A stretch of 64,000 nucleotides of DNA from Phoronis australis. Lineage: Eukaryota; Animalia; Phoronida. A program made the position numbers and the translations under genes. Shown here one piece after another: positions 21,152-51,723 of this stretch. Position 1 is the first letter of the stretch. Every line of letters begins with the position of its first letter. The stretch is from contig NMRA01000197.1 of assembly GCA_002633005.1 (NCBI GenBank), positions 68,055 to 132,054 on the forward strand, written 5' to 3'. The notes beneath the pieces were generated by a model. It ran no database searches and was not told the DNA's origin. It saw only the letters and a program-made list of their open reading frames with translations.

Positions 21152-21275
21152 AGTTCCAATACGAAACAAAAATAATATTTTACACCAGAAAAAAGTACCA
21201 ATATAAAAACACAAATAATGTTTTACACCAGAAAAAAATTCCAATACAAAAACACAAATAATATTTTACACCAGA
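21152..21275. repeat. Minisatellite, ~42-43 bp unit x3
   Basis: CCAATA..AAAC.(A/C)AAATAAT.TTTTACACCAGAA repeated three times. Confidence 0.85.

Positions 21276-23803: not shown

Positions 23804-23807
<4 letters not shown>

Positions 23808-23892
<85 letters not shown>
23808..23892. repeat. (TG)n microsatellite
   Basis: Pure GT dinucleotide run of ~85 bp. Confidence 0.99.
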
Positions 23893-23894
<2 letters not shown>

Positions 23895-24687
23895 AGGGAG
23901 TGAGAGGTAGACGCCAAAGTAGTCGTGACTCAGTGCATGTTCGTGACGTTTCACACCTTTTAAGGTGTAAAATTAAAATTGGTACACCACTTCATGAAGT
24001 TTGATTTGGAGTGTTTTTTAACTTTAATAAGGCTGAGAATAAAAGAAATGTTGATATTTAATCCCATACGCGTTGAATCTGTCGAGGGAAATACGTTAAT
24101 GTTTTCCGTATTCACCCCCGCACTACTTCAACAGCGACCTCTGACATGGAAAGTTCAAAAGGTAGGTCAATGTCGACTCGACGTCGATAGCTGGTTCGGT
24201 CATCAAACTTTCGAAAAATAGTTTAAAATAATGCAATTGCAACAGTGTGAGTAACACTTGACATTTATTCAGGTCTCAGTCGTAACATCCAGAACAGGAA
24301 TCTTAATTAGCTGGTATTATGAGTATATGACAGTTTTGTCTCTGTTTTCAATTGCTAAAGTTATGTCGTCTTCAACCCAGGCGCCGATTCCTCGGTAACG
24401 TCGGTCTCGTTGGGACATTCCCAGATGAAATGAATTCTCGATAGGATATGGCAATAGTATTTCTATGTATGTGGGATAACCTATATATATCCCACTCGAC
24501 ATGGCGGAATAATGTCTCGTGGGATATTACTTCGTCAACGCCACTCTCTGTACGTTTTGTGTATTTTTTCAACATGCACACAAGCAAAAATCCAGAATTA
24601 AATACAACAAAACGGTGTTCATATACGACAACTGTAGCTCTTCAGTTTGGTAAAAACACTTATTTGAAATATGACCACAAGTGTTAA

Positions 24688-29300: not shown

Positions 29301-30039
29301 ATTAGCAATTGTTCTTTCTTCTAATACCATTTAAGGTGTCCTGCTCTGGCGAGTTCATAACAAATTCGCGGTGAAAGCACAAAAATTTACTTTCTACTTT
29401 TTCACACGCGAATAGGGTTCAAGGTCAAGTACCGTACGGAATTATCTGATGAGTTACATACAGCCGGCAATTGCCGGTTCATCACGGAAGGTTACGAAAT
29501 GGTCTGCTAAGTGTGGAGTTATCGATGTCGTGACTTTCCGTGACAAATAGGCAATTTCCGTGTGAAAAAGAACTTAGTACGCATGAACTTCCTAACAACA
29601 ACAAAGACGACGCCCATTCCTTTCCTTCTTTTAAACATCTAACTAGCATCTTTTGTAATAAATATTCTCATACCGAGGGTGACATATATGGCTATTGTGT
29701 TCTCTACATTTATTGTTTAAGTCTATTATTGTATTTGTCATTTTTGCACTCATATTTTATTTGTATTTTGTTAATATTTCATATGCTAATGTTTTCAACC
29801 ATTTTTGTGTATCCATGTTCGCACCTTAATGGAAATAAGCTGTAATTCCTCCGCTATCCGAGTTTCCCACTTGTACTTTTATTGAATTTCATTGGTCTTG
29901 AACCTTTTCTAGGATTTCCTGTAGTTATTTGGGACAAATAAAACAACAATATTGGGAATTTCAGGGTCACAGCTCTACAAATGAATATTTCACATAAAGA
30001 ACCAGATGGGTTCCTTAATTACAAGAGACAACACACACA

Positions 30040-30235
30040 TTTACGATACCCAATGTGTAATTGAGTATCAGATACTAAGTGGCCCAGGTTAGCACAGTAC
30101 CAAATGGGTACATAATACCAAATGGGTATTGGCCAATTGCCTACCAAGTGGGTCGAGCAAAACGGCAAATTCAATAACAAGTACCAAATGGGTACAACTG
30201 CCAACTGCGCAAATATCATATAATAAAGTACCAAA
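30040..30235. repeat. Cluster of TACCAAATGGGTA motifs (probable MITE internal repeats)
   Basis: GTACCAAATGGGTA-like motif at ~30097, 30116, 30141, 30181 and 30228. Confidence 0.6.
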
Positions 30236-30349
30236 CATCAAACAGACAACTGAGCTATAACAACCTGCAAAGCAGGTTCCGGACAAGCTGAGTGAGCAGA
30301 CCAGCCGGAGTGATAAAAAGAGATATTGTAAGGAACGTGGTGTTGTGGC

Positions 30350-30720
30350 TCAGTATGTGCCACATGGGCAGGGTTGTTCATGGGTGAACAATCCTGTCCA
30401 CCGCCAAAACCCGCGTGGTGGCCGTGACCCTGGTAGAGGAGTTGCAGGAGTTGGGGGAAAAAGGTAGTCGGAAACAATGGGAAATCGACCGATGCCTTTC
30501 TCGGATTTTCCTCCATATTTGTTGAAGCTCAACCCCCCTCCAGAGTGCAGGCAAGACGTGTGGCTTGGGGCACATCACCCGAGGGACAGGTTGGATAGCT
30601 CACGATGGGCAGTACAGTACCGCTCCCAAAAAGGTCGCAACCCAGCCACACCCTGCGCGACCATAGAGCTGGAGTTGTGGTCGCTGTATATGACAGGCCC
30701 CTCCAATGTCGCCCTACCGC
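30350..30720 (-). pseudogene. Possible DIRS/Ngaro-type retrotransposon ORF1 remnant
   Basis: GC-richer block; minus-strand fragments YCTAHRELS..ATRLACTL..GLSFNKY..PRGFW..QPCPCG resemble the YD..FR and Cys-rich end of tyrosine-recombinase retroelement ORF1. Very degenerate. Confidence 0.3.
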
Positions 30721-30956
30721 ACCCACCTACTAGACGCAGCTATATCTTAAGTACAAGGGAAATTGCACTACATGGCAGTGCAGACACAAATATACCTGAA
30801 GGACCTGGGGTAGCTCCCACCCGAGCCTCGCATGTTACAGGGCCACCCAGCACTCCCCGCCGCGCGCCTAGCCAAGATGTTTTGAGATATGCTTGGAATT
30901 CTTGCGGCCATTTTCATAAAAGTGGTTAACAAAATCAAGTTTAAGACTTAAACCAG

Positions 30957-31107
30957 CCTCCCGTTCAGTAACGCTAGGACCTCACTAAAAAGCAAGACTT
31001 CGCGAAATTACGTGAGAATTTGCCGTGTATTTTTAATAAGAACACGTGACTTTGATTAGGTTTTAGCTAGGTCCTAGCGTAGGTCCTAGCGTCTACTGAA
31101 CGCACAC
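30957..31107. mobile_element. Small Harbinger-type MITE nested in the larger element
   Basis: TIR CGTTCAGTA.ACGCTAGGACCT / AGGTCCTAGCGTCTACTGAACG; 3 bp TSD CAG (30954-30956, 31108-31110). Confidence 0.65.
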
Positions 31108-31646
31108 CAGGTCTTCCTAACCCACGTCTAATTTTAGACCTAACATGCATTTAACCAACGTGGTTTAAAGTCTGAAAGCCAGGTTCTGTTAGACTGGAGA
31201 CTGTATTTAAGAAACAGGTTTAAAGTATCCAAGGTGTCCGGTTGTGTCAATCTGGATTAACTTAACGAAGAAAGTATTGAAGTTCTTCGATGGAACCTCA
31301 ATCATGTGAGACAAATAGCTCATGTGTACAGTAGCAGTATCAGTGTGGACATTTGCAGGTGTGTCTGTTACCAATAAAATGAGTCACAAATGTCTGAAAG
31401 ATTTTTTCATGATTAAAAGGTTTCCTCAAAGAACTAGATAGGGAATACATCAATGTTATAGAAAACGAGAAAACTGGCGGCAACTCAATGAGCGTAAGCA
31501 ACAGGCTTGGAGAGGTAATGGTCCAGACTAGCTGCACAGTTCCCACAGTTCTGAAATGAAGCAACAGGCAAGAAACACTTAAAAATGAAGGCCAGGAAGG
31601 AAATTACATTGGTGAAAAAGGTCGCGAAAAAAAACTTTGACGGACG

Positions 31647-31863
31647 CAGTGGCGGATCTAGGGTATCATGAGGGGGACCAACGTTTTTCGTTCTCTGGTA
31701 CCTGTGCCCAACAAACGTACACAAACTAAAGTACACGCCGACGATTAGGCGCAACATAATGAATACCCTAATTTAATTCCGTATAGTTTTTACTATTCAC
31801 TTTTTGCTGGCGGCCAAATGGGAGGGTAGAACCCCTGCCCGGTCGTCCTTAAATCCGCCACTG
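31647..31863. mobile_element. MITE with CAGTGGCGGAT termini (hAT-like)
   Basis: CAGTGGCGGATCTAGGG ... AAATCCGCCACTG; flanks GGACG / GGACC (imperfect 5 bp TSD). Confidence 0.65.
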
Positions 31864-32344
31864 GGACCAAAGGAGCTCAGGCAGAAGAATCAAAGATGAT
31901 GCCGTCTTTAGGCTCGCCCGTAACACTCACGACTGTGACGCCTTGCTCGATCAGTCTTATTCTGTGAAACCAGTCCGAATGACAATCTGCAACACGTTTC
32001 GGTCTACGTTTGAGTCCGTGTCGTAGTAAACATGAAAAATGAAAATAATACGTTCTCGTTCTAAATTAATTGAATCGGTGTCTTTCAGCTCCACGGTTGA
32101 GCACACTTTTATCGCGCAAGTCAGACATCAATTTAAGAGTGTCAAACCTGGGTCTGGACAGCTCTTTTAAGAGCTGGCTTAAAAGTTTAACCTGCTTTGA
32201 GATCTTAATACAGTTCTAAGGAATGTAATTCTCGTTGTTGAAATGAAAACCGGTGTAAACCAGGTCTCAAATTGGGTTAAACCAGGTTTTACAAGACCAC
32301 TGGTAATAACGCTAAGACACCTTTATTACGTGCAATCTGGTCTA

Positions 32345-33740
32345 AAGTTCCTTGCGGAAAAAGGCCTTCTATCGGAATCACAGTCTGGTTTCTGCATTCT
32401 ACTCTTATTTTAAACAATCACGCTACTGACATTATTTTTAACAATTTGGATCAGAGGAGGCTTACCGATGCTATTTTTGTTCACCTTAAGAAAGCCTTTG
32501 ACATTGTGGGCCATGTTATCCTATTACAGCAACTAGAGTCACATGGAGTTAACGATAACGAACTTCTTCGGTTTAAAACTGATACGACCTCAAACTGGCT
32601 ACCAAATACGGTAGCTTTCTTTCCAACTACTCAACCGTTGTCACTGGCGTATCTCAGGGTTCAATTCTGGGCCCTCTATTATTCACTTTTTTGCTAAAGA
32701 TCTCCCTACCGTCCTCCACAACAGTGTGTACTAGTTTTATACGCTGATGACATCGCAGTTATGTCCACAACTGGCTCAGTAAAAGAACTTGAAACTTCTC
32801 TCAATGATGAGATAGCCCTTATCTATGACTGGCTTTTTAAAAATAAACTCACTCTTAGCATTTTTGAAACCAAGTCTATGCTGTTGGAAACCCACCAGAA
32901 ATTAAAACAGCAGAAATTGTCTCTTTTTACCAACGGTTCCCCTAGTGAGTGTTCTTGGGCCTTATTTTAGGTTCCAAACTTATGTTTAATTTGTATGCAG
33001 ATCACATCACAAAAATTGTCGTGGTAAATCGGCGTACTTAACGTCTAGGTAAATTTCTTAATGTCAGCACTGTTAAGACACTTTACCTTTCTATTGTCCA
33101 CCCCCATATTGGTTACTGGTTTCCGGTTTGGGACATACGAGCGACAACCTCGTAAGCAAAGTCCAGGCAATCCATAACAGAGTCGTCAGGGCTACCCTGG
33201 GTACTAGAATTAGGGACACCCGGTTCAACGAATTGTATTCCAAGCTTGGATTTTTGAAAGTAAGACAAAGAAGTAAAAATCTCTCTGCCTGTTGCATGTA
33301 CAGACGTGTCAATGACTTGGCTCCAGCATATCTCAGCTGCAAATTCAGTAGCAGTCAAACTTTATATTCTACAAGTTCTTCCGTTGTTGGCAATGTTTGC
33401 TTAAAAATCAAAACCAAGACGGGCAAGGGATGTTTTATGTATGCTGCTACTGCAGTATGGAACTATCTTAGCCCAGATATTAAACGGCCCAATTCAGTTA
33501 ATGTCTTCAAATTTCATATTAAAAAGTGGCGGTAATTTATTTGCCAATTCTTACATCTGTATCTGTCTTAATTATGCCATTTTTCCAAACTGTAAATACA
33601 CTCAATACTTATTACCAACTTTGCATTTAATTTCCTGTCTAGTTTATTCATCCTTCGTCATTCAGTTATTTATAATCTAAATTCCCATCCTGTTTTGATT
33701 GACCTTATACTCCAGGCCATAGGCACACAGTACATATCTA

Positions 33741-33773
<33 letters not shown>

Positions 33774-33912
33774 CACTCATGCATTGTTTTACCACTTTAT
33801 TGTATCATATTGTACTGTATTGCATCCTGTTATTGAGGGCCCTCTTGGAAAGCAGTGCTGAGACTGAAGAGGCCACCCTCATTTTAACTATTATAATAAA
33901 TAAATAAATAAA
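32345..33912 (+). mobile_element. 5'-truncated L2/Crack/Daphne-type LINE (RT domain, frameshifted)
   Basis: LSESQSGF, AIFVHLKKAFDIVGH, GVSQGSILGPLLF, YADD, WLFKNKLTLS, APAYLS...FMYAATAVWNYL; 3' UTR with a (TA)n run at 33741-33773 and an (AATA)n tail ending at 33912. Confidence 0.85.
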
Positions 33913-34450
33913 ACAAGTCCACTTTAAATCAGGTTTAATTTTAAACCACCTGAATGAAATCGGCCGTTGCAGTCCAAATCAACGACCAACAGAGAAACAA
34001 ACAAGGAAAATCGCTGGCGAGTTACAAAAATATGCGGCACACCTCACAATGAAATGAAAATGCGCTCCAACGTACATTGTACGTAAAATAAACCCTAAGC
34101 AGAATAGAGCGAAAAAGAACCCAATTCACCTCCCTAGCGTGTTGTTAACATTTTCTTTTCTTTGTTAGGATCTGATGTGGAACATTAAACAGCCCATGAG
34201 ACTTATTCGGAAGCGCCTACCTTGACGACAAAACTCGTATAGTTTTATTCTTTTGCAAAAGACCTCCAGCAAAATCTTACACTGGCTAATCATGGAAAGA
34301 TTTCCTCATCGTCAGTTGTGGTATGAGTCAGACGACATTTAATTTACTGTATGAATATTTCACAATTTCATCCCTCTGTTTATTCAAACCCCAGTAGACC
34401 GAGCTAGGCGGCTCTGCAACATCAAGAATACTTCAGTGAGTTTTCAGAAG

Positions 34451-34517
34451 GTATGTGATTTCTAACTTTTGCATTTATTTTGAGAATATACTATAAAAGA
34501 CGTGTAATCTTTTTTAG
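34451..34517 (+). other. Candidate 67 nt spliceosomal GT-AG intron ending 2 nt before the NRPS ATG
   Basis: AAG|GTATGT donor at 34451; AT-rich body; TCTTTTTTAG|GT acceptor at 34517. Further candidate sites: acceptor TTTTCTTTTCTTTGTTAG ending 34168 and donor GTG|GTATGA at 34321. Confidence 0.6.
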
Positions 34518-34519
34518 GT

Positions 34520-37500
34520 ATGACCAGCGATGAAACAACAAAATCTAAAGATGCTACTATTGTTGGTGAGGACGACAATCATGGAGTCTTTACGATCAGC
34601 CAAAAACATTGCTCAGCAATATCTGACATTGTCTCACCTGCTGGCTACAACACAATAGAAGCGTTGGTATGTATTGCGTATGCTGTGCTCATCCGTTATG
34701 AAGGCGCCGATAAACCCCCCTCCATTGTCTTGGCGTTTGCTAGTCCTCTGCAGGATGAACAAGAATCTGACACCTCTTTGCATAATTACGACAAAAATAC
34801 TTCTGATGGCGAATATTCAACAGCTCTATTTCCTTGTGATGTCAATGGTCATATTTTGAACCTGCTTTTGTCTCAGCGTCTTGAGCTTGAAAAATGGCCT
34901 GTAGCGCTTTCTTATTTTAGGCGCAGCAGCCCAAACGTATACATGGCGTTCGATCTTCCGCGCGAGTTCAAGCGAAGCAGCCAAAGTAAGCAGTCTGCAA
35001 TTAAGATCAGCATGGTCCTTCAAATAAATGGGGATTATACATGTTCAGTGCATCAAAGCACAAGCTGCTGTAACAAACCGGTGACGAGATTTCAAGATCA
35101 TTTTCTATTGCTAGCTCAAGAAGTCATCGTCTCTAAAAATCTTAATCTATTCAGCGTCCCAATTCAAACGCAAGAAGAGAAGAAACTAATTTCTGAGTAC
35201 AACACGACCGATAAATATTACGAAAAGGGCGACTGGCTTATGCATGAACTTTTTGAAGAAAAAGTAAAACAACTTCCTGACGCAGTCGCTGTTTCTTGTG
35301 CTGATCAAATACTGACATACAAAGAACTAGATGAACAATCGAACAGGCTAAGTGCTAAAATACTGTCCAACATGGGAAGTGCATGTTCAAGTCGTTTGGT
35401 TGGAATAAGTGTTGATGCATCAATAGACATGGTGATAGGTATATACGCCATCATGAAAGCTGGTTTCGCCTACGTACCCCTTGATCCAAGCTACCCAGAA
35501 GACAGGCTGAGTTACATGATTGAAAATTCTAACGTTAGTCTTGTACTTGCCAAGAAATCAATTTCTGAAATATTGAGAAATTTTTGCAAAAATGTGCTTT
35601 GCCTTGAAGACGTATTGGTAGAATCTGCCAATGGAAAAGAACCTCAAAAACACATTGTCAATCCTGATGACCTGGCTTACGTTATATACACATCTGGCTC
35701 CACTGGGAAGCCAAAGGGTGTGATGGTGAGTCACCGAAATGCAGTTAACACTCTTCTGGACATCAACGATAGGTACTCTGTGACTGAAAAAGACAAAATT
35801 CTTTTGGTTGCATCACTAAGTTTTGATCTATCAGTTTATGACATCTTTGGCGTCTTAGCAGCAGGGGGTACAGTTGTCATTCCAGTTCCGGAAGTGCGGG
35901 GAGTTCCAGATCCCAGCTGTTGGATCGAAACTATGAAAAAGCATAATGTGACAATCTGGGACTCGGCACCAGCGGTCTTAAGTCTCCTAATGGAATTTCT
36001 TCTTTCCGAAGACGAAACGCTTCCTCTTTCCTTGCGATTATGTATACTGAGTGGTGACAGAATACCACTAAACCTCCCCACACATTTGCTGGAGATGGTT
36101 CCTAAAATTCAAGTTATGAGCCAGGGAGGAGCCACTGAGGGTTCAATATGGTCCATTTATTATCCAATCCAAACCGTTGACGACGATTGGACGACCATTC
36201 CATACGGCATGCCACTTTCCAATCAAAAGTACTACGTTTTGGATGAATTCCTTAATCCCGTACCAACTTTAGTTGTAGGAGAGTTGTTTATTGGGGGGAC
36301 AGGTGTTGCCATGGGATACATAAACAATGCTAAAATCACCGGCTATCGATTCTTGCCAAGTCCTTTTATCAAAGGAGAGCGAATCTATAAAACTGGTGAT
36401 CTAGGCAGACTGCATCCTGCAGGATACATTGAATTTTGTGGAAGAATTGACACTCAAGTTAAAATACGTGGTTTTCGAGTTGAGCTGTCTGAAATTGAAT
36501 CAGCTTTGGTTAACCAAGAAGGTGTTGCTGATGCGTTGGTCATGAAGGTCAAGGAAAAACTTGTCGCTTACGTCATTCCTGACCCAAATGTTCGTTTAAT
36601 GGAAGCGGACCTACAACAGAAAATTGCTGTTCAACTTCCATCATATATGGTTCCTGCGTTTTTTGTGTTCACGCATTCATTCCCCGTAACTGCTAATGGG
36701 AAAGTGGACCGCCAAGCGCTGTCTGAGGTAGACTTTGGTCAGAAAACCAACGACAACACAAACTCTCCTCTGCTTGAAAAGAGCTCAGGAACGAAAACAG
36801 CTTCGTTTACAGAAAGGGAATTCCTTCTTGCTGAAACATGGAGCAAAACGTTTAATGTAACTTTAGAAGAACTTTCACCTTCGTCATCTTTCTTTGAAAT
36901 TGGCGGTGATTCCATTTCTGCTATGACTGTAGTCGCTGAGTTTCGGAAGAAAGGCTTTAGGATATCGGTGCAGCAGGTTTTGGGTAACCCTAGGCTTTGT
37001 CAACTTGCCATGATAGCAAAACCAGTCCGGAGTGTTCAAAATGGCGAGGTGCAACATCACTCAACACCGTTTGTTCAACTTACTCCAGCCCAGATTTGGT
37101 TCTTTGCACATAAATTCAAAAACCCACATTTCTGGAACCAGTCGTTCCTTCTTCAACCAAAGAAACAAATTGAAGCATCCCAGCTGTCTTCAGCCTTAAC
37201 CAAACTGATAAGCCAACACGAAATGTTGAGGTGTACGTACTCTCAAACATCTGAAGGTAAATGGATACAGAAAATAAACGACATAACGACGCCATTTCTC
37301 AGAACTAAAACACTAGAGGACTTGGACATGCTAAACGAAGAATTAGACAAGTTAAAATCGTCTCTTAATATACACAAAGGCCCTCTATTGGCAGCTGGTC
37401 TATTTAATGTCGGCAATGTGCAAAGAATCTTTTTAACAGTTCATCATTTGGTTGTTGACCTTGTTTCATGGCGTATCATCCTAGAAGACCTGGAAAGAAT

Positions 37501-40500
37501 GTATGAAGGACACCAAACTGAAATGCCAAGCATGTCATTTCAAAAATGGTCATCACGTTTGCGACAAACTGCCGTGCCTATTACGAGTGATGCTTGGCCG
37601 AAAGAAACTGAAGCCTTCCCACTTCTGGTAGATTCTGGAACTAATTTATTTCCAACATCTGCCTACAGAAAGACAATTGTTTCTGAGCTCGATCACAAGG
37701 TAACAGCTGCTTTGGTATCCTCTGCACATTCTTCATTCAAAACTAACACTGCAGACTTTTTGCTAGCATCTCTGATTCTAGCATACAATGAATCATTTGG
37801 GTTGAAGGATCTGCAAATTGACGTTGAAGCTCATGGTCGAGAACCATGGTCTGACGCAGACGACATTTCAAGAACTGTTGGCTGGTTCATGACAATGTTT
37901 CCCCTGAAGCTAGAAATCTACCAGGGTTCTTCAAGCGACACAACGATGGAAAACACGCTGAAATTGGTAAAAGAAAAATTAAGAAATATACCGAAGCGCG
38001 GGATGCCATTTTGGCTTTTGAAGTTTTTGAAGAACTCCGATGAGACAAAAGTTCAAAAATCAGACGTACTTTTCAATTACTATGGTCGATTCGATCAGAT
38101 TCAAACCAAAAGCGCTTTGTGGGACGTTGCCGACGAGTATCCTTGTGGTGAGGATGAGTTCAGTGCAGAAGAAAAGCTAACACATAAAGTGGTTGTTGAA
38201 TGTAGTTTGAAAGAAGAAAAACTCCACATGAAGATGTTTTACTGCACTGATATCCACCGACAGAGGACTGTAGAGTCATGGATGGCGAAATGGAAAGAGA
38301 ATTTAACAAATCTTGTGTTACACTGCACAAGAGATGACGTCTTTGGATATACACCGTCAGACTTTCCGTTGCTGAAACTTTCACAGCACCATTTAGATGA
38401 GCTCTTGTCAACAAGACTTGCACAATTGGATCTTGAAGCTGAAAACGTTTCCGACATGTATCCGTGTACACCCATGCAGGAAGGATTTTTGTTTAGTCTT
38501 TTGAAAGATACTTCTGCTTATGTGATACAAAGGTCCTGTACTATCAAGGGCTTAGTCGACCAGAACAAGCTGCAAGCCAGCGTTTACAAAGTGATTTTAA
38601 GACACGACATCTTACGAACGCGCTTTATTGCGGACAGACTAAATGGCTGCATGCAGATAGTACGGAAAACTTTCGAACCGCAGTGGACGATTGAGGACTG
38701 GTCTGATTTTGAAGAAAACCAATATACTCAAAAAGAGAATGAATATCTACGATATGACCGCCATTCAGGTTTTAATTTCTCAGAGCCAATGCTAAGGTTT
38801 GCACTCTTCAGGATTTGCAAAGATACGTTCCGCTTCATCATTTCCTCTCACCACAGTTTAGTAGACGGGCAAACGAGTTCACTGATTCTTCAGGAAATAA
38901 TACTTGCCTACAATGACGCCGTTCTGCCAGACACACCGTCGTTCAAGGAATACGTCAGGGAAATGATTGATTATAACATGACTTGCTACAAAGCTGAAGG
39001 TTTTTGGAGAGACGAAATGTATCAACTACCTGATCGTGGCAACCTTCGTTTCTTGCCCCCAGAAAATCCACAAACGGGATATGCTGTTATTCACCGCTCA
39101 ACAATGTGTGGAAAGGTGGGAGAAATTCAGAAGTATGCAGAGCGGCATGCAATTTCAGTTGCGGCGATGATCTGTGCTTCTTGGGCATATATAATTAACA
39201 AATATTCTTGTGATCCAAACGACGTCATTTTTGGTTTTGTCGTGTCTGGTCGTGGGACCTCTGATATTGAAAACATTAATAGATTAGTTGGTGTAACCAC
39301 AAACACCTTGCCATTCAGAGTGAAGATTCACGACCAACACGTTCCGGAGTGGCTACACTACATCCACGAAAAGTTAACGGCTATTCTTGAACAAGAAAAG
39401 TCATACATGTCAGATATACAAAAATGGTGTGGACTTAATTCCGATGACAGACTTTTCGAAACACTTGTATCTTACAATACAACAAACAGAGAAACCGAGT
39501 CTTCCTTAAAATCAGCATCTTTTGATGTCTGCGATGTCTATGATCATGAATTCACGGAATATCCTCTAACACTAGATATTGTCAACACGGGTAATGCCAT
39601 TGAAATCAAAGCACTGTACGACAGAAATATTATGGATGAGTTAGCAGTTGTGCAGACACTCAACCAACTAGAAAGAGCCATGTGGTGGATAGCAACAGCG
39701 TCAAAAGAAACTCGCATAAGCGAGTTTGACATTGTGAGTCCTGAAGAACATCTTGAATTGAAAAATTTCAACCCAGTCGAAAACTATGATCGACAACTGG
39801 GGCATTTCAAAGGTGTGCATCAACTATTTGAAATGATGGTAGAACGCTGTTCCAAAGACCATAAGGCATTGGTCATGGACGATGCGTCTTTAACCTACAG
39901 AGAACTCAACTCAGCTGCCAACGCCGTAGCTTCACGACTTCGATCTCTTGGCATTCTCCGTGGCGAGAAGGTTGGACTTCTCATTGATCGAGGAATAACC
40001 ATGGTTGTCGGAATGCTGGGTATCTGGAAAGCTGGAGGAGCCTTTGTTCCTATTGATGCTGCCCAGCCGTTGGACCGCGTGCAGTTCATATTGGAGGATT
40101 GTGGCTGTCAAATTGTCTTAAACTGCAGCTCAATCGACACACAAACATTACCACAGAAACACACGTATATTAATTTAAATCGCCAGACGCTCCCTACGTA
40201 CAAAAACCAGAGTGGGTGTAATCTGGATTGTGTCAATGATGCACGAGACCTTTCGTATATGATTTACACTTCGGGTACAACTGGGCGACCAAAAGGCGCC
40301 ATGGTTGAACATCGTGGTCTAATTAATTTCTTGATGTATAAGCCTGGGGGAGTTCTCGACGTGACCCCTCAAACGAACGTTATGCAGTACTTTGCCGTCG
40401 GATTTGATGGCGCAGTCTTGGAAGTGTGGACAACACTTTGTCATGGTGGGTGCCTTTTCATTCCTTCTGGCGATTTTACAAAGATTATGAAGATAGTCGA

Positions 40501-43500
40501 TGCTGTTGGGAACACACCGTCTACTCTTGCTATTCTCGACCCCAATGACTATTCTAATTTGAAGCTTGTTTTTGCGGGTGGTGAACCGTGTTCGTCAGCA
40601 ATGGTGAAGATGTGGGGCAAAAGTAGAGTTCTATTAAATGGCTACGGACCAACGGAATGCAGCATTATGTCTCACAGTGGTCGACTGTTACCAAATAAGC
40701 GAATTTCTGTTGGCAAACCACTGCCGAATACCAAAAGCTATATTCTCGACAGCTATCATCGGCTTGTTCCACCTAATATGACAGGTGAGCTTTACATAGG
40801 CGGAGTTAACGTTGGGAGAGGTTACCATAATAGACCGGATTTGACCGAAAAGGCCTTTTTGGAAAACCCCTTTGATACTGGACGAATGTATAAAACTGGT
40901 GACTTGGCAAGGTGGTTGGAAAATGGGGAAATCCAAATCATTGGGCGAATTGATCATCAAATTAAACTACGAGGCAAACGTGTAGAACTCGAAGAAGTCA
41001 GGGCTACTATTGAACGTCTTCCTGGTGTAACACAAGCACACGTCCTTGTTCAAGACAAACAACACATTGTTGCATATGTCATGTCTTCCGGTTCACTGAG
41101 TCAAGACAATCTTCTTTCAGATTTGAAGAAGAAACTTCCAGGTTTTATGGTACCGACTGCAATATTTTGCATGGAAAATTTTCCACTTACAGCAAACAAA
41201 AAGATAGACCAAAAATCTTTGCCAAAGTTTGAGCCCCAAACAACGCATTGTAAGGGTGTAACTCCGTCTAATAATCTTGAAAAAATTATTCTCAACGGTT
41301 ACAGAGAGGTTGTGGACCCGGGTTTTAACATGGAGGATGATTTCTTTGACCTTGGAGGGCACTCGCTTTCAGCAATACGACTAAAATCGCTACTTGCAGA
41401 CAATACAGGATTAGATATTTCCATGGTTGATGTTATGCAGTTCACCACGCCTGCTGACCTCTCCGCAGAACTAAGCAACAGAATGCTGTTTCCAAAGAAG
41501 AAGCAGCAAACGGCATTTATCATTCCAAAAACTTGTCCCATCGACGGTGACAAGGTTATTACGGCCAGAGCATCCTGTCGACAAGAACAAATGTGTTTAT
41601 TGTATGAACTAATTCCAAGTAGTCCAGTGTACAATGTAACTGTTATTCTAGCATGTCACGGATTCCTAAACGTGGACATTCTGAAAAAATCTCTGAGACA
41701 CATAACGACAATGCAGGGTTCGTTCCGCACCTCGTTTATGAGGTCTGCTGACAATTCTTTTTATCAAACAATAACGCCCGAAAAAGACTACGATCTGGAC
41801 TTCAGCTACTATGACTACGCAGGACAATCGGATAGCAGTCAACAGAAAGCACGTGAACGTCTGTACAAAGAAGCTGCAAAACCATTCCTTCTTTATTCTG
41901 TTCCTCTGGCCCGATTTGTACTGGTCAAACTCTCAAACGAAGTTCATCATTTGGGAATATTTATGCATCACTCCGTCACTGACGGAGCCTCGTTTAAGAT
42001 AATTATTGAACAGTTGGGTGAATGCTATTCTTCGTTACTGAATAATCATCAGTTAAACATTTCGTCACAAAGATTAAACTACATCGATTACAGCAATTGG
42101 GAAAGGAAGCTACTAGATGATGGTGAAATGGAGAGACAACTAGAGTTTTGGAAAAACAATTTAGAAAATGTTGCCACTATTATGGATTTACCGCGGGATC
42201 GCTCACGCCCCGCCATTCCATCGTATCGTGGCGCTACTGTCTTCTTTGACATTCCAGAAGTTGTTTCAGAAAAAATGATGAAATGTGCCCTTGAATGCGG
42301 GGGAACACTTTTCACATCCCTGCTGTCTACGTTTGCATTGCTGATTCGAGTGTATTGTCAAGCTGATGACGTAGTTGTGGGTGCCTTCTTCTCTGGAAGG
42401 CACAACCCCGGTGTTGAAAGTCTAGTCGGCTACTTCGTAAACACTCTTCCTGTTAGAGTTCAATTCAAGCAAAATTCCACATTCAAATCCCTTTTGAAAG
42501 ATGTAAGGAATTTGATGCTTGATGTTCTTGATAACCAGGATGTTCCATTTCAGAAGATCCTAGAATGCTTGAATGTGCCACGTGATACGTCTTATCACCC
42601 CATCATTCAAGCAGCAACAGTTCTTCAAGAAGGTTTTGCAAACAGGCACTTTGCCGATGGACTTTCTGTCGATGTTCAGACCTTTGAACAATTCACTGCA
42701 AAGTTTGACTTGAACTTGGAGTTTGTGAGACAAGATAGTGGAAAGTTGAGTGGCCATTTCGTATACAACACTGATATATTCAACCGTTCTACCATACAAA
42801 GAATGAGCCAGACTTTGTTACACTTGTTTGAAGTGCTAACAACAAACCAAGACACACCTTTCAGCTCTTTAGACTTGCTACCACCATGTCAGTCAGCCCT
42901 TATTAAATCCTTTAACAGAACGGGAGATTTTTGCAAGCTTCGCATGCACCAGCAATTTGAACAACAANNNNNNNNNNNNNNNNNNNNNNNNNNNNNNNNN
43001 NNNNNNNNNNNNNNNNNNNNNNNNNNNNNNNNNNNNNNNNNNNNNNNNNNNNNNNNNNNNNNNNNNNNNNNNNNNNNNNNNNNNNNNNNNNNNNNNNNNN
43101 NNNNNNNNNNNNNNNNNNNNNNNNNNNNNNNNNNNNNNNNNNNNNNNNNNNNNNNNNNNNNNNNNNNNNNNNNNNNNNNNNNNNGCAGGTCGCAAAGATA
43201 GGCAAGTTAAATTAAGAGCTTTCCGTGTAGAACTCGATGAAGTCGAGCATGTTATGAGGATGCAGGATGGAATTTCAAACGCAGCATCTGTCGTGAAAAA
43301 TGACGTTCTTGTGGGATACGTAACACCAGACATAGGAAGTGCTGGCGTTTTTCAACTGAAGAAAAATCTTCAAGACAAACTCCCTCGCTATATGGTTCCA
43401 TCCGTGATAGTTCCTCTGTCAGAATTTCCTATGTCAAGCTCAGAAAAGATTGATTATAAAAGCTTGCCTGAACCCAGTGTTGGTGACATCGAGATACTGA

Positions 43501-46500
43501 CTAAAAAAGAAGAAATTTTGATCGAAATATGGAGTGAGGTTCTACAAATCGATCCATCAAAAATAAAGTCAAGCGACTCATTCTTTTTTCTGGGTGGTGA
43601 TTCTATTTCTGCCATGAGAGTATTTTCTCAGGGAAGAAAACGCGGACTTCGTTTTACAGTACAACAAGTATTCCAGTCCAGAAGCCTGTCTCAGCTTGCA
43701 CATTTTGCAAAGTTTGTCGGTGTTAAAAAATCTACTATCAAGAAGAACAACAAGCAGATATCGGGCAATGTGCCCTTCACCCCTATTCAAGAATGGTTTG
43801 TCAACTTAAACCTTCGTAATCGCAATTGCTTCAACCAGTCACTACTACTAAGACCATTGCTGAACGTTAACCCAACAATCCTACAAAATGCCATTCATGA
43901 ACTTATCTCCCATCACGATATTTTGCGCGCTTCATTCACTTTTAAAGAAGGTGGGAATGCAAATCAGGAAATCCAACCATGTGACAAAGCTCGAACGCCA
44001 AAGTTGATTCACAAGAAAATTGATGAAGACCAACTAGACGATGAGCTCGGGAAACTTCAAAATTCATTGGATTTAACATCTGGTCCCCTTCTGGCGATTG
44101 GTCTATTTGACATTGTTGGCCAGCGGCAGTTTCTGTTCATAACTATCCATCACTTGGCTGTGGACCTTGTTTCTTGGCAAATCATTCTGGAAGATCTCGA
44201 AACACTATGTCGCGGAAGCTCCCTGCAACCAAAAACTTCTTCATTCAAAGAATGGTCAGAGCTTCTGGTTTCCGACTATACTCCAAGCCTCAATGCAAAT
44301 GATTGGCCAGCATTGGAACAAAGCAGTCCTTTAAAAACAGATTTTTCGAAAAGCATGGAAAGCATCGAAAGCGCAAGTCGTGTGCTTGAATCAATAGAGC
44401 TAGACAAAAATACAACAAACAAATTACTGAGTCTTAGAGGGACTCATGGGAAAGATAGCCCTTCGATTAACGACGTTCTTTTGACTGCTTTAATTGTTGC
44501 TTACTATGAGTGGACCGGAGAAGCATCGTTGACTGTTGAACAAGAATGGCACGGAAGAGAACCTTGGACTGACACACTCGATCTTTCTCGAACTGTCGGT
44601 TGGTTCACTGCTATGTTTCCTGTCACATTGGCTTTGAAAAATCATACAGACAACTTACTGGAACACCTTGAAGAAATAAAACGACGACTTCAAAGAATTC
44701 CTAATAACGGTATGCCGTACGGCGCTATGAGGTACTTGAAAAAGGACAATGATCCAAGGTTTAACCAACACAGTGACGTTGTGTTCAATTACCACGGGAG
44801 TGCCACGATGTTCTCTAAGGAGAATAGCCTGTGGGATGTTTGCACAAACGGCAATTACACTTACAACAACCAGTGTAAGTACGAAAAGATCACTCACATG
44901 TTGGCTATTGAGTGTTATATTTCTCAGGGACGCCTTCAAGCCGTCTTCATTTTTAGCAAAGACCTTCACAAGACTAAAACCATTCAATCATTGGCACAAT
45001 CCTGGAAGAAAGTAACAGAAAATATCTTAGAGTCACTTCAGCTTAGCTGCACAATTTCTGATATGCCTTCAAAAACTGATGATAACAAAGTGAAGACAAT
45101 GGAAGATGCATTGAAAGTAGCGCATATCAGTTTGGACGAGGTGGAAGATATTTACGCGTGTACACCTCTTCAAGAAGGGTTAATATTTTCTTTACTTCAA
45201 GACAAGTCGTCCTATTTAGTGCAGTTATGTTTAAACATAACAGGAAAGCTTGATGTTGAAAGATTCAAATATGCCTGGAGTATAGTTATTAAACGTCACA
45301 CAGCTTTGCGAACGAGCTTTATTATTGATTCCGGAAGCCATTCTTTGATTCAAATAGTAAGACGCCAGTCTGATCCTCAATGGGAAGTGGGATCCTGGAT
45401 TGATTCTGAAGAAACGGAGAGTAGTTTTGTAAACTTAGACAGGGCGAAGGGATTCAGTGCAAACGGAATTCTAATTAGATTTGCTTTAATGAAAACAAGC
45501 GAGTGCAGCCACAAGTTTATTTGGACCTTCCATCATTCGGTTGTTGACGGATGGTCTTCTCCGCTCGTCCTCAGAGACGTTTTGAAAGTTTATCATGCTC
45601 ACGATCTTCCACCCGCCCCTTTGTTTCGTCTGTTTGTGGAAAATTGCAAATCTCGGGACATGCTCGCTGCACAAACTTTCTGGTCACAATATTTGTCAAA
45701 TCTGAAACCAAAACGTATCTTGACATTGTCGACAAATCAGGGATCCTCTGAATGTGACACGAAGCAGGTGTTGCGTACATTTTCTACAAAGCTGGAAGAT
45801 TTGAAGAAATTTGCAAGGGAAAACAGTTTAACGACAACCTCTGTCATGTATGGCGCGTGGGCATTAGTTTTGGATCGGTATTGCAGTAGCCACAGGAAAG
45901 ACGTAGTCGTGGCCGTTGTCGTCGCGTCGCGAAGTGCCGACATTGAAGGAGTCGAAGACGTAGTTGGTCTACTGCTCAACACCTTGCCACTTCGCATAAC
46001 TTTGCCTTCTGACGAAAAAGTAACTTTTATAGAATGGCTGAAGACCATCCACGAAAATCAAGCTGCAATAATGGCTTATGATTATTGCAATTTAGCTGAC
46101 ATACGGAAATGGAGCGGTCTTCCAAGAGATCAGAATCTGCTTGATACTCTGGTTACATACGAAAATTACCCAGCGTTTGAAAACTTTAAAGACCAAGAAA
46201 TCGAATTTTGTGCAATCCATGGATATGAAGATATCGATTTGCCTTTGGGAGTTCTTTTTGGTGACGACGGCGAATATCTCATGGCTAAGTTCATGTACGA
46301 CGCAAATAGGGTCAGCAATGAATTAGCCCACCAGATGTTGGCTCACTTGAACAATCTTTTAGATGAGATACTCCTTTCTGATAGCTCAAAACCAGTGATT
46401 CATGCCGAGATTGACACTAAACATGCCAGTGTCGAAAGTCCACTAACTGACGACGTGACGTACTCGCTCTGCATTAAAGATCAACATGGTCGATCTTGTC

Positions 46501-47539
46501 CAAACGGTGTTATCGGGAACTTGTATATACAATTCAACAAGGATGATGACGTGCTTTACACTGGTGTTCTTGCAGCATCACAGATTAACGGTGACATAAC
46601 AGTCGTTTTGGACAACGAAGTAAACTCAATACCAAAGGAACTCGATGGGATTGAAGGTTTGCGAGGCTGTTTTATTTCAGAAACTAATGAAGGTGTATTT
46701 GCCTTCATTACCTCCGAGTATCCCATGCCCTCTGCGACATTGCAGAATCTCAAATCGATACTTGGAAGGGCACATGCACCATTGTTTGTTCTACCAGTTC
46801 ACTTCACCGTTGTCAGTAAAAACGTTCTTAAAGAAGTAACCGAAGTACCGTCGGAAGTCCGGCAAACGGAATCCAAACAATCGTGGCAAGGTAACAGTGA
46901 CGTCATGGAAATGTTGACCGACAAGGAATTGATGCTTNTCTGCTTGGAAGTACTCCATTCGAGTCAATTCCTCAACTTGCCTCGCTGTATGTAGAGCGAA
47001 TGAAGCAGTTGGACTTCTTTTACACTGAAACCCCGTATGTTCTAGTTGGATATTCGTCAGGCGGGGCTATAGCTTTTGAAATTGCGCTGCAGCTTCAAAA
47101 GATTGCCCGCAGACCGGAGACGCTAGTTATTCTTGACGGAAGCCCGGATTTAATCGCAAAAGCATACACGAGAATCTTGAAGAGCTCCGAAAAGCAGATG
47201 GAGGCTCACGAGAAATGGCTTCAAAACACTTGGAATGAAAAAGGCTTGAACGAAGACGATTTGAAGGTTGGACTGTCACTGTTTCGAGAAACTCTGAATA
47301 TTTACGCCTCCTACGTTCCTTCCACCATTTACGACGGAGACGTCAAGCTGGTACTTGCAACTGATATACTAAAACAAGGACCGCTATCTGAAACTCTTGC
47401 TGAGCTTCAAAAACAAGAGCGCGACTATGGCACCCAACGTTTGTGCTCTAAACCAGTGCGAGTTGTTGACGTTGATGGCGACCATTACACCATGATGAGA
47501 GACGAAAAACAGATTATAGCGAAGACTGTTGTCGAATAG
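34520..47539 (+). CDS. Multimodular non-ribosomal peptide synthetase: C*-A-T-E-C-A-T-C-A-T-E-C-A(vestigial)-[T]-TE
   Basis: Open frames 34520-42967, 43185-46937 and 46940-47539 are separated only by N. A1 35240-36725 (YTSGSTGKPKG, FDLS, NGKVDR); T1 GGDS 36902; E1 HHLVVDLVSW 37442, EAHGRE, RTVGWF; C2 HHSLVDG 38849; A2 39815-41225 (YTSGTTGRPKG, NGYGPTE, YKTGDL); T2 GGHS 41354; C3 HHSVTDG 41966; A3 42944-43470 (mostly in gap, GRKDRQVK, LPRYMVP); T3 GGDS 43593; E2 HHLAVDLVSW 44148; C4 HHSVVDG 45531; TE GYSSG 47048, LDG, GDHY. Confidence 0.96.
42968..43184. other. Assembly gap inside adenylation domain A3
   Basis: 217 N between the A-domain start (MHQQFEQQ) and motif A8 (GRKD). Confidence 1.
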
Positions 47540-47593
47540 TCCGTGTAAAAAGCTATATTTCTGTTTCACTGGACCTACTATTGGTACTAGGTA

Positions 47594-47599
47594 AATAAA
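47594..47599 (+). terminator. Candidate polyadenylation signal of the NRPS gene
   Basis: AATAAA about 55 nt downstream of the TAG stop (47537-47539). Confidence 0.5.
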
Positions 47600-50500
47600 T
47601 ATTTACAACGTAAAATAATAGAACTGATTATATATAATTTAATCTAGGAAATGGACTGTCAAACAATGTCGCGTAAGAATGTTTTGCACGGGCACGATTA
47701 TGCGCTTTTGCCGAGGACAATGCATGAGGTCCACCTGTGCCTACAACCGAAACTTTGGTGCGTGCGCATGTAGGCAAAACACCTGAATAAACAACTTTCT
47801 TTGAAAAATACACTATTTCAGGCCTAGGGAAACTAGTGAGTACAAACATTGTCTAGCTTATATGCATACTGTTTCTGAAGTCGGCGAACTTCGTGCTGAC
47901 AATGACGAATTAGTATCTGCATAGAGCAACCTAACATATCGCATCTCTTATATATGTACCAAATAGGGTCTATGGAAACAACCCGTACCTAAAGCCTAGA
48001 AAACAATCGGGCATTACTGTTGATCTGTTATGGACTGTGTATTTAAGTTCACATTATTTATCATTTCGAGTTAGGTTTAGGGTGTTGATTACATTTGGTT
48101 TAGGTGCTTGATGTGTTCACATTCGCAGCGATGACGTCGTTTGCAAAGGAGGCTTAGTTTGGGCAATGACAAAGCTAAACGACTGAAATATATGCGATGA
48201 AGTATTTCTGTTGCTTTTTATCATGGCGTTGGTTGTGTTGAATCCCGGGTGATGAGTACACTAAGAGGCTGTTTGATGAATCTGTAGATCACCGCGTTTT
48301 GAACCAATCTGTACACATAGGCATAAACTAGTTTGAGACTGCTTAACACACTAAAGATGTCATTTAAATGCGTTAACCAACAATCTGCGAATACATGTAC
48401 ATTTACTGGATTAACCAAAAATAGAGAAAAATGAATACTGAGAACAACGGATAAATAAAGATGACAGGTAAGGGAGGGTTGAGGACATAGTAAAACAGGT
48501 AAAAACAGGTAAACATAGTAAAAATTAGTCGCAAAGCCCCATCCATCATTCCAGAACGATACTTGCTGCGCGTCTCAACATAATACACTTCTTGCGAGCC
48601 CGCAGTATGCACGTAAAATCTTACGACACGTCGCACAACATATACCCGCACATCCTGCTTGTTTATGCGTTAAAGCATAGACTGGATGGGCATAGTACCG
48701 GGACCGCCAAATCTGTATGTTCTAAATGGACAAAATCTGTGATCGTACACACAAAGCGCGACAAACAGTATCCAGGCCGAGAAGAGACAATTCGCTAACG
48801 GCGCCTTGTTTGAGTCCCGGTTTTACTTCCGACAAATATGTCGTCTGCTCATTAACTGGAAAGTGGTGCCTCTTTTGACAATTCCCCTCAAATGAAAATA
48901 TCGGAGTTGCGAATCTGTTGTCTATGAACTATGGTATTAGTGACGTAATCGACGACATATGAAGCATTAATAAAATGAATAAAATTACAGCACACATCAC
49001 GAATTTTTGTCTGACAGGTCGGAAATTGGTCGTCGACCGGCCGTCGACCGGTCGTCTAGCCAACAAGCAGCCGACCAACAACGGTCGGCAAGGAGGCGCC
49101 TACTGAGTCGCCTCTTGGGTCTAGCGTAGACGACCAATTCGTATTAAGCGTGTCCTTGTTCGGCAATTACCATTTTATGACTTAGCGGGTGAAGTTTGGA
49201 CAAACAAACATTTAACTGTTCCCTGTTCGTTTACCAGTGACAACTCAGGTCTTGACATCGGTTTATGAACTTTTGTTCAACCATTGAAAGGAGTTAAAAT
49301 CGAATCAACCTACAAATACGAAGTGCGTGACATTACACCAGCCTAAAACTACATCTTGAATTAATGACGGTGTGGTAAAATCAAACGTTAAGTGATATCG
49401 CGGAAAATTAATTTCTAACTTTAGATATGAGACTTTTAATACAGCACATTATGCATAAAAACAAGCACAAAATTTGAAATTTACAGTAAAACTGCATAAA
49501 AATCAGAATACAACACTGGATATTTTACGACCTCAAATGTTTTCATGCCGCGGAATACTCAACAAGCAGCACGCATTTGCGCTCATCCGTTATTGCTCTT
49601 GATCATCACTTCATCACGCTGTATATTAGGCTTTACCACAGATAATTATTGCTTATTTCTGTATAATTTCTTAATGTGTTGATACAGCAATAGAACCCAA
49701 GTTCATTTTAGGAACAACATAAACAATGGATTGAACATAGCGCCGATATTAAATCATGGGCGCATGAAAACGGAAGACTGTGATCGGTTTATAGTGTCAT
49801 CCATCATCCATCATCATTCTGAAATTATTGTCACTTTCGCAGTAAAAAAATCTTTTCGAAGCTACAGCCTTCCTATCTAGCCAGCTAGTTGTATGAAGAC
49901 TATTTTCAAAATACAGCAAGGTGCCACTGCGTATTGAGATCAAACAGACCTCAAAACTTCACACAGCCCGGATAGTTACGCTTGTCACCTCGTCGAGAAG
50001 CTTGTATCAACGTTAGCTTAAGACCGGCGGATGTGCATGCAAAATCTGGAAGTCAATTGGCATTCAAGTTGCCCGTTGCGGCCGTTTAAACGAAAAACAT
50101 CCTACGTCATCTTCTTGCGTAATTCTCTGCCATTTTAACGAAAAAACGTATGTCGTCGTTTTGAAAAAAGTTCATTCGTGACACGCGCCACTTCCAAAAT
50201 GGTTTCAATATCTCCCATTAGATGATGACAATATCTCAGCAAAATTTGTTCTAAAATTCGGTTCACTGATATCAAAATTCCAAAAACATATAATGAAGTA
50301 AAACCAATTCTGATCATTTGTTGTGACGTTTACGCAACCTCGAGGGAGAACGTTTGATTGAAGAATCTGGGAAAAGAAAATGGCTAATAGGTGAGGCAAT
50401 ATTTCATTGGGTCGAAAGTCGACGCATAAGATCACACCATAACTTTAGTAGAAAATTAATTGTAGAAAATCAATTTTTGCAAAGCTGGTAAATAATTTAG

Positions 50501-51722: not shown

Positions 51723-51723
51723 N

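What the first reader, a model, noticed from the sequence alone, without database searches (positions are those of the whole stretch)
34520..47539. Giant multimodular NRPS with two epimerase domains in an animal-like, transposon-saturated genome
Seen: a ~13 kb intronless coding region encoding C*-A1-T-E-C-A2-T-C-A3-T-E-C-A(vestigial)-[T]-TE. The visible catalytic motifs are intact (HHxxxDG in three C domains, HHxxxD plus ExHGRE in both E domains, PCP serines, TE Ser/Asp/His), with no stops over >12 kb, while almost everything around it is decayed eukaryotic TE (Kolobok, Sola3, Harbinger, Tc1, L2, Tx1, HERO). Known: multimodular NRPSs are typical of bacteria and fungi; animal cases are rare (ebony-type single modules, nematode nemamide PKS-NRPS, springtail ACV synthetase, bdelloid rotifer NRPSs). 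This layout differs from ACV synthetase, which has a single terminal E. Inference: a horizontally acquired gene kept by selection that makes an undescribed short peptide with D-L-D configuration.
Basis: partly seen in the sequence, partly recalled or inferred. Interest (0 to 1): 0.93.

Follow-up and report, generated by a model that had tools for sequence, protein, structure and literature searches.

The report
Giant peptide synthetase in an animal
A 13-kb gene for a microbe-type peptide assembly line is transcribed and spliced across a 13.7-kb repeat-filled intron in what is likely an invertebrate animal, and it is predicted to build an unknown four-residue peptide with two mirror-image (D) amino acids, chemistry that animals rarely encode themselves.

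Summary
The NRPS is real and host-encoded. Its order is C*-A1-T-E-C-A2-T-C-A3-T-E-C-dA-T-TE, with intact visible catalytic motifs. It is not one readable frame: two assembly gaps hide the A3 core (bridged in frame by 1,119 nt in an RNA contig) and most of T4. It is not intronless: three runs show a GT..AG splice from a 5' exon ending at 20800 to 34518, across 13.7 kb of repeats. Two raw RNA runs read the + strand along the whole gene; a third has no reads on the part laid. C2 and C4 group with post-epimerase (DCL) domains. The degenerate A4 resembles the dA of fungal SidD, whose carrier is loaded by an upstream A. The likely product is therefore a D-L-D-L tetrapeptide starting with a Cys-like residue, not the D-L-D tripeptide. 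No relative above about 45% identity was found. A2, C3 and TE lean to Basidiobolus/Dimargaris NRPSs, so a direct bacterial donor is not shown. Against: frameshift variants in two runs, and unknown A2 and A3 substrates. Animal multimodular NRPSs are known and this locus may already be listed, undescribed, in a 2023 survey table. New variant of a known kind; interest 0.74.

The parts
20700..20800 (+). 5' UTR exon (start approximate), no ATG in 20690-20800; donor GTAAGT follows
   Evidence: (X2 contig has 99 letters on this side)
20801..34517 (+). 13,717-nt GT..AG spliceosomal intron filled with repeats and decayed retroelement pieces
   Evidence: joint in X1, X2 and 4 raw reads of X7; polypyrimidine+AG acceptor
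34520..35190 (+). ATG and C*: eroded C-terminal half of a condensation domain, no HHxxxD, likely structural
   Evidence: 0.96, Condensation; not significant; model uninformative
35192..36769 (+). A1, Cys-type clade; pocket DLYDISQIW(K)
36800..37039 (+). T1 (GGDS)
37070..38389 (+). E1 epimerase
38450..39769 (+). C2, groups with post-E (DCL) domains
39770..41245 (+). A2, short type shared with Basidiobolus, Dimargaris, Mesostigma; pocket DGLGFGGIM(K), substrate unknown
41255..41494 (+). T2 (GGHS)
41555..42919 (+). C3, in the clade of ordinary internal (LCL-type) C domains; sister to the Basidiobolus C domain
42944..43469 (+). A3; core hidden by the 217-N gap (42968-43184), bridged by 1,119 nt in frame; pocket not read
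43485..43724 (+). T3 (GGDS)
43755..45074 (+). E2 epimerase, sister of E1
45135..46394 (+). C4, DCL-type, intact HHxxxDG, sister of C2
46380..46890 (+). dA4: remnant of the last third of an A domain, no P-loop or substrate pocket
46914..46938 (+). start of T4; the rest of T4 and the TE start lie in the gap collapsed to one N at 46938
   Evidence: loose ends (255 or more letters behind 46937 in X1, X2; 19 and 38 reads in X6, X7)
46940..47539 (+). TE (GYSSG, Asp, His) and stop
47540..48375 (+). 3' UTR, AATAAA at 47594 and 47786; RNA depth falls after about 47800

Best explanation
This is a transcribed, spliced gene for a four-module nonribosomal peptide synthetase in a eukaryote that is likely an invertebrate animal, predicted to build a tetrapeptide of alternating D-L-D-L configuration that likely starts with cysteine or a close analogue. 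Shown: gene structure, + strand transcription, domain order, intact visible catalytic motifs, domain clades. Inferred: A1 loads a Cys-like residue on T1 and E1 turns it to D; C2 (DCL) joins it to the A2 residue; C3 adds the A3 residue, which E2 turns to D; T4 has no working A of its own and is loaded by an upstream A (most simply A3, as A1 loads T2 in fungal SidD); C4 (DCL) adds that L residue; the TE releases the chain, by ring closure or hydrolysis. The gene is of old, non-animal-type stock shared with zoopagomycete fungal NRPSs, likely gained by horizontal transfer; the T-E-C unit was duplicated within the lineage; the gene gained a host promoter and 5' UTR intron and is expressed in some samples only. 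A defensive small molecule is the likeliest role, untested.
For: Splice joint 20800->34518, GT..AG, in X1, X2 and 4 reads with 4 starts of X7; the 26-letter loose end matched the window once, exactly, 0 expected. Stranded RNA of X6 and X7 covers all bins from 34201 to 48375, depth 0.9-34 on the sense side, at most 1.6 on the other. X8 has 0 depth on 34342-36999 while the intronic repeats are read. Gap 1 bridged in frame. E1+E2 SH-aLRT 99; C2+C4 99, inside a 99 clade with 3 of the 4 post-E domains. A1 inside the Cys-type clade (98-100); best single-A solved structures include bacillamide BmdB; pocket matches the Cys code DLYNLSLIWK (PMC12283262) at 7 of 10. dA4 lacks about 320 profile positions; SidD and Nps6 dA domains lack nearly 290 residues, and A1-to-T2 loading was shown (PMC8162485). 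A2 groups with Basidiobolus and Dimargaris (97) and shares a short A3-A5 span found in only 3 of 645 A domains, all eukaryotic; C3 groups with the same Basidiobolus protein (93), which is also the best full-length TE match (29%). GC3 0.40 equals flank GC 0.40. MLYCD exon 84 bits to human, at most 41 to bacteria.
Against: The T4 serine and the A3 pocket were not read. A1 differs from the Cys code at 278, 299 and 322; A2's code fits nothing I found (no hit). Contigs of X1 and X2 lack one base at 43458 (whole depth, including the contig that bridges gap 1) and about 30% carry an extra base after 42206; each would stop the frame about 13 codons on; raw reads of X6 and X7 show the first in 0 of 8 and 1 of 14, the second in 0 of 5 and 0 of 7. 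A threefold depth step near 42800-43300 in X6 and X7 may mean a paralogue or an internal start. The fungal grouping joins long branches (0.8-1.0), bacterial A domains score nearly as well (343 vs 349 bits), atlas neighbours of A2 are bacterial, and few eukaryotic and no animal NRPSs were in my trees. No true DNA run was laid. No product is known.
Confidence: 0.52

Rival explanations
1. Same gene, but module 4 adds no amino acid: C4-T4 only hands the D-L-D tripeptide to the TE, closes it into a ring, or joins it to a free amine.
For: dA4 cannot adenylate. C-T ends that cyclise are known in fungal NRPSs (GliP; recalled). T4 serine unseen.
Against: C4 keeps HHxxxDG and a shorter branch than C2 (0.79 vs 1.18) in the DCL clade; a TE with its triad is present, so release needs no terminal C; A-less modules loaded from upstream are documented (PMC8162485; PMC12400406, listing).
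Confidence: 0.2
2. The gene is under relaxed selection or is one of several copies, some broken; transcription persists but full-length enzyme is rare.
For: Two frameshift variants in X1 and X2; many read differences (870 of 1279 X6 reads at 95-99% likeness); 14 of 22 best-supported coding differences change the residue; eroded C* and dA4.
Against: About 4,270 visible codons without a stop at 55-70% divergence from all relatives, with all visible catalytic motifs kept; X6 and X7 reads are nearly all intact at both sites; their common indel (45084) is in frame.
Confidence: 0.12
3. A non-collinear, iterative synthetase of SidD type that makes a metal chelator or an oligomer of the short chain.
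For: dA module like SidD/Nps6; Cys-type A1 is common in siderophore lines (PchE, BmdB hits); Basidiobolus NRPSs are rich in siderophore types (PMC7466969).
Against: No cyclisation (Cy) domain: C2 has HHxxxDG; two epimerases and a TE are not SidD features; no tailoring gene among 103 frames scanned.
Confidence: 0.1
4. The whole scaffold belongs to a non-animal eukaryote (fungus, protist, symbiont) in which this NRPS is ordinary.
For: A2, C3 and TE lean to fungi. The MLYCD comparison had no fungal, plant or protist structure to compete. Host name is coded.
Against: 13.7-kb intron and a 64-kb window with one other gene piece; the intronic repeats are heavily read in X8, which has no NRPS reads on the part laid; holders in 2 studies plus raw reads from a third carry the same species label; fungal likeness is only 29-39%.
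Confidence: 0.05
5. Bacterial contaminant misjoined to host DNA.
For: A1 best hits are bacterial, 41-46%; coding region has no intron.
Against: Spliceosomal joint to an exon 13.7 kb upstream in three runs; no close relative in GTDB genomes or JGI metagenomes (29-33%).
Confidence: 0.01

Closest known systems
Animal NRPS clusters surveyed by Suring et al. 2023 (PMC10531068)
   Same: Condensation-domain NRPS in an animal genome. One phoronid row of Table S4 spans 52,475 nt, which equals window 34520-46994 (12,475 nt) plus 2 x 20 kb (antiSMASH flank, recalled), so this locus may be in that list (1 of 21 rows seen of 772).
   Different: The parts I read give no architecture, substrate, splicing, expression or origin for the phoronid genes and call them a riddle.
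ACV synthetase of springtails, Plectus, fungi and bacteria
   Same: Multimodular, uses Cys, has E and TE, occurs in animals.
   Different: ACVS is A-T-C-A-T-C-A-T-E-TE making LLD-ACV. Here the Cys-type A is first, there are two internal E domains each followed by a DCL domain, and a C-dA-T module before the TE.
Basidiobolus meristosporus gene model 338397 (ORX93212.1) and a Dimargaris cristalligena NRPS
   Same: Nearest A2 (39%), C3 (31%) and TE (29%); shared short A3-A5 span.
   Different: 338397 is a single C-A-T-TE module with another pocket (DGWFVGAVC); listed as a transfer candidate from bacteria (PMC7466969); product not established in what I read.
Fungal siderophore synthetases SidD and Nps6
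   Same: Last module with a degenerate A cut at its N-terminus, carrier loaded from upstream (PMC8162485).
   Different: They are bimodular, use acyl-hydroxyornithine, end in a C domain and have no E; no sequence kinship was tested.
Bdelloid rotifer NRP/PKS genes; nematode nemamide PKS-NRPS; ebony, Sm-NRPS and bursatellin-type enzymes
   Same: Animal-encoded nonribosomal chemistry.
   Different: Rotifer genes hit mostly bacteria and form their own clade (PMC11258130); nemamide is a PKS hybrid; ebony-type enzymes lack C domains. No sequence of these was in my trees.
D-L-D-L cyclic tetrapeptide synthetases such as HC-toxin HTS1 (recalled, no call)
   Same: Four residues with alternating chirality, first module A-T-E.
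   Different: Fungal C-terminal release, four working A domains, no Cys.

Membership tests
Multimodular NRPS | A domains with P-loop, A7, A8 and A10 lysine | tested here: met
   A1 and A2 complete; A3 only A8 and A10 visible, core length normal
Multimodular NRPS | Carrier domains with the phosphopantetheine serine | tested here: inconclusive
   T1-T3 met; T4 serine lies in the gap at 46938
Multimodular NRPS | C domains with HHxxxDG and a release domain with its triad | tested here: met
Multimodular NRPS | Makes a peptide after activation by a PPTase | not testable with these tools
   no genome held; no assay
Collinear (type A) NRPS | Every module has its own working A domain | tested here: not met
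   module 4 has a remnant without P-loop or pocket
D-residue-forming NRPS | E domains with His and Glu, each followed by a DCL-type C | tested here: met
   DCL label rests on grouping with post-E domains that I labelled by context
ACV synthetase | A(Aad)-T-C-A(Cys)-T-C-A(Val)-T-E-TE, single terminal E | tested here: not met
ACV synthetase | Isopenicillin N synthase nearby | tested here: inconclusive
   none among 103 frames of 75 aa or more in the window; short exons would be missed
Ebony / Sm-NRPS type | Single module without condensation domain | tested here: not met
   definition
SidD/Nps6-type siderophore synthetase | Degenerate A truncated by about 290 residues in the last module | tested here: met
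SidD/Nps6-type siderophore synthetase | Bimodular, terminal C domain, acyl-hydroxyornithine substrate | tested here: not met
   four modules, two E, TE; A1 is Cys-type
Cys-activating A domain | Clade and pocket code DLYNLSLIWK or near | tested here: inconclusive
   clade met; 7 of 10 code positions; no assay
Horizontally acquired animal gene | Integrated: spliceosomal intron, host neighbours, host-like composition, transcribed | tested here: met
Horizontally acquired animal gene | Nested within a named donor clade, absent from related animals | tested here: inconclusive
   mosaic placement on long branches; no animal orthologue found but animal genomes could not be searched

The most novel reading that the evidence does not exclude
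An invertebrate animal makes, with its own spliced gene, a cysteine-bearing cyclic tetrapeptide of alternating D-L-D-L chirality, by a synthetase line it shares with zoopagomycete fungi (fungus-to-animal transfer or an old opisthokont lineage). If the host is a phoronid, this air-sensitive thiol peptide is a candidate for the predator deterrent that has resisted isolation because of volatility or reactivity with air.
Probability: 0.15. Interest if true: 0.92.

Novelty: new variant of a known kind. Interest (0 to 1): 0.74.

Why it matters
Peptides with D residues found in invertebrates are usually credited to symbionts or to ribosomal peptides modified later (own knowledge). Here a host gene has the full machinery for two epimerisations in a four-module line, with splicing and expression shown. 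It gives a concrete target for finding an animal-made nonribosomal peptide, a test of how animal NRPSs arose (the 2023 survey left this open), and a second setting for SidD-like loading across a dead A domain. If the host is a phoronid it offers a testable source for an unidentified chemical defence (PMC13232333).

Tried and rejected
No whole genome held, so paralogues, PPTase and neighbours could not be searched. Whole-length homologue search timed out; the A1 search was ranked by module number and gave only 36-46% hits, mostly bacterial. TE against longer proteins: none of 1661 candidates (weak test). TE against 1.84 billion representatives: best E 2.7e-14, no orthologue. GTDB genomes: 0 of 40 pattern matches confirmed; JGI metagenomes: 2 of 35, 29-33%; both find close relatives only. 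Single-sequence AlphaFold of C* (pLDDT 31) and dA4 (38.5) uninformative; no fold search run. dA4 against PDB sequences gave chance hits. No earlier scan findings. The 'DNA?' label of X1 and X2 was rejected: they hold the spliced form and show little or no depth on unique intron parts; their depths were not used as copy number. The idea that 217 N means a second vestigial A was rejected. The synonymous count (8 of 22) uses only the best-supported rows shown, of about 400, and was not used as evidence of selection.
Full report
Observation. Between 34520 and 47539 the + strand holds three long frames, not one. They are separated by a run of 217 N (42968-43184) and a single N at 46938. The motifs are there: HHxxxDG in three C domains, HHxxxD plus ExHGRE in two E domains, serine motifs in T1-T3, GxSxG in the TE. 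The A3 core and the T4 serine are hidden in the gaps.

Gaps. One contig of run X1 crosses the first gap with 1,119 letters, which keeps the frame. That is 373 codons; the same span is 367 in A2, 391 in A1 and 361-441 over 354 spans in the fetched proteins, so A3 is full length. Loose ends at the second gap, in all four runs laid, continue the T4 helix on one side and lead into the TE on the other (read by eye); the homologous stretch in the Basidiobolus protein is 131 residues. The whole protein would be about 4,570 residues.

Host gene, not contaminant. A loose end before 34518 matched the window once, exactly, at 20775-20800 (0 expected in 100 shuffles). GTAAGT follows it and a pyrimidine run plus AG precedes 34518. 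Laying reads on 17000-36999 gave the joint 20800->34518, GT..AG, 13,717 nt, in contigs of X1 and X2 and in 4 raw reads with 4 starts of X7. So the coding exon is spliced to an exon 13.7 kb upstream, across repeats that the same runs read in bulk. X1 and X2, guessed as DNA by the tool, are therefore RNA-derived; no true DNA run was laid. Raw stranded reads of X6 and X7 cover every bin from 34201 to 48375 in the sense direction, and no splice joint was listed inside the coding region (depth on the 5' half is only 1-11, so rare joints could be missed). X8, from the same study, has no reads on 34342-36999, the only part of the gene laid for it, while intronic repeats are read: expression differs among samples. 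GC3 (0.40) equals flank GC. The window begins with a last exon of MLYCD closer to human than to bacterial enzymes; no fungal or protist MLYCD was in that comparison, so 'animal' is likely and not proven.

Domain classes. Trees used domains cut from the 393 proteins fetched, thinned by similarity (124 A rows from 641; 55 of them; 87 C/E rows from 444; 65 of them). E1 and E2 are sisters (SH-aLRT 99) in the E clade; C2 and C4 are sisters (99) within a clade (99) holding 3 of the 4 post-E domains; C3 sits with ordinary C domains. E1-E2 score 268 bits against at most 218 for outside hits. This reads as a duplicated T-E-C unit and predicts D at positions 1 and 3. A1 lies in the Cys-type clade; its pocket is DLYDISQIW(K) (anchor positions recalled), 7 of 10 with the Cys code of PMC12283262; some bacterial neighbours share the Asp at 278. 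A2's pocket, DGLGFGGIM(K), is glycine-rich and unassigned. C2 is not a cyclisation domain, so a free thiol rather than a thiazoline is expected (inference).

Module 4. The 170 residues after C4 match only the last third of an A profile (7.2 bits; 200 shuffles, best 2.7): no P-loop, no pocket. SidD and Nps6 have the same kind of remnant, cut by nearly 290 residues, and direct loading of T2 by A1 was shown for SidD (PMC8162485). With an intact DCL-type C4 and a TE, the simplest reading is that an upstream A loads T4 and C4 adds a fourth, L residue: D-Cys-like, L-X, D-Y, L-Z. If A3 is the loader, Z is the L form of Y; if A1, a second Cys would allow a disulphide (yersiniabactin HMWP2 precedent, recalled). 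Alternating chirality suits ring closure of a tetrapeptide (own knowledge), but TE mode cannot be read from sequence.

Origin. No domain has a relative above about 45%. The best A2 match and best full-length TE match is one Basidiobolus meristosporus protein, ORX93212.1; A2 groups with it and a Dimargaris domain (97), C3 with its C domain (93; 0.96 by FastTree). A short A3-A5 span (126 in A2) occurs at 125-127 in 3 of 645 A domains, all eukaryotic. Tabima et al. list that gene model among transfer candidates from bacteria (PMC7466969). Against: long branches, near-equal bacterial scores, bacterial atlas neighbours, thin eukaryotic sampling, no animal NRPS in the trees, and no test of one clade. 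A1, E and DCL domains have only bacterial neighbours here, apart from two Linnemannia C domains in the DCL clade. I take old horizontal gain from a stock shared with zoopagomycete fungi as most likely; fungus-to-animal transfer, parallel gain from an unsampled bacterium, and old vertical descent with wide loss are not separated.

Results against a simple functional reading. Contigs of X1 and X2 lack one base at 43458 at their whole depth, and about 30% of their depth has an extra base after 42206; either would end the frame about 13 codons later. X6 and X7 raw reads show them in 0 of 8 and 1 of 14, and 0 of 5 and 0 of 7. RNA depth triples near the start of A3 in X6 and X7. Null alleles, an expressed broken paralogue or an internal start could explain these; I could not tell them apart. 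Of the 22 coding differences among the rows shown, 8 are synonymous, which says little.

What is in print. Suring et al. 2023 (PMC10531068; read: parts 1-3 of 5, passages, supplement part 1 of 15 and a row search) list antiSMASH NRPS clusters in seven phyla. One phoronid row of Table S4 spans 52,475 nt, equal to 34520-46994 plus 20 kb each side (flank size recalled); 1 of 21 rows seen, of 772. This is circumstantial, but the locus may be catalogued there and the host may be a phoronid. The text I read gives no architecture or function for those genes. Searches for a description of such an enzyme (open-licence main texts only) found none. Other papers seen as passages: PMC11869996, PMC11258130, PMC7466969, PMC12283262 (supplement search 78), PMC8162485, PMC12833800, PMC13232333; PMC12400406 as a listing only. 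Unread supplement parts of Suring, its Figure 2, and the rotifer and Basidiobolus supplements may bear on novelty and origin. PMC13232333 states that the deterrent of one phoronid has not been isolated, likely because of volatility or reactivity with air; a thiol peptide would fit, which is speculation resting on an unproven host identity.

Verdict. A real, spliced, expressed four-module NRPS with two epimerases in a likely animal host (host-encoded about 0.95; functional in most copies about 0.8; tetrapeptide model overall 0.52). It works like a fungal or bacterial NRPS with a SidD-like dead A domain, and it is not a member of the ACV synthetase, ebony or SidD families. New variant of a known kind; interest 0.74.

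Noticed in passing
window 22-284 (+): Last exon of malonyl-CoA decarboxylase (MLYCD) after a polypyrimidine-AG acceptor; 84 bits to human, at most 41 to bacterial structures. The only other host gene piece found.
   Followed up: partly
window 51574-54394 (-): 853-aa non-LTR reverse transcriptase frame (RVT_1) between two 149-nt direct repeats of 97% identity (51574-51722, 54246-54394), with a single N at 51723; odd for a non-LTR element, perhaps an assembly effect.
   Followed up: no
window 6116-7807 and 24668-26391: 1.7-kb repeat in two inverted copies, 91% alike, with an older partial copy at 532-1208; very heavily read in RNA runs.
   Followed up: no
window 8350-9712 and 57656-59076: 1.4-kb repeat, 84% alike; a short palindrome at 58468-58538.
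   Followed up: no
window 29954-31100: Repeats in the intron with strand-biased RNA and a sharp start at 29954 in X7 (23 molecules) and X8 (5); reads likely come from other copies.
   Followed up: no
window 42800-43300: Threefold rise in RNA depth in X6 and X7, 5 molecules ending at 42822, just before the ATG at 42944 that opens A3: paralogue or internal start of a half-length A3-to-TE protein.
   Followed up: partly
window 42206 and 43458: One-base indels in contigs of X1 and X2, nearly absent from X6 and X7 reads.
   Followed up: partly
window 45948: X1 contig leaves the gene here for 255 or more unrelated letters; unexplained.
   Followed up: no
P0133, P0391: Green algae turned up among hits: a Mesostigma NRPS with the same short A span and a Picocystis PKS-like protein with several TE-like stretches.
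   Followed up: no
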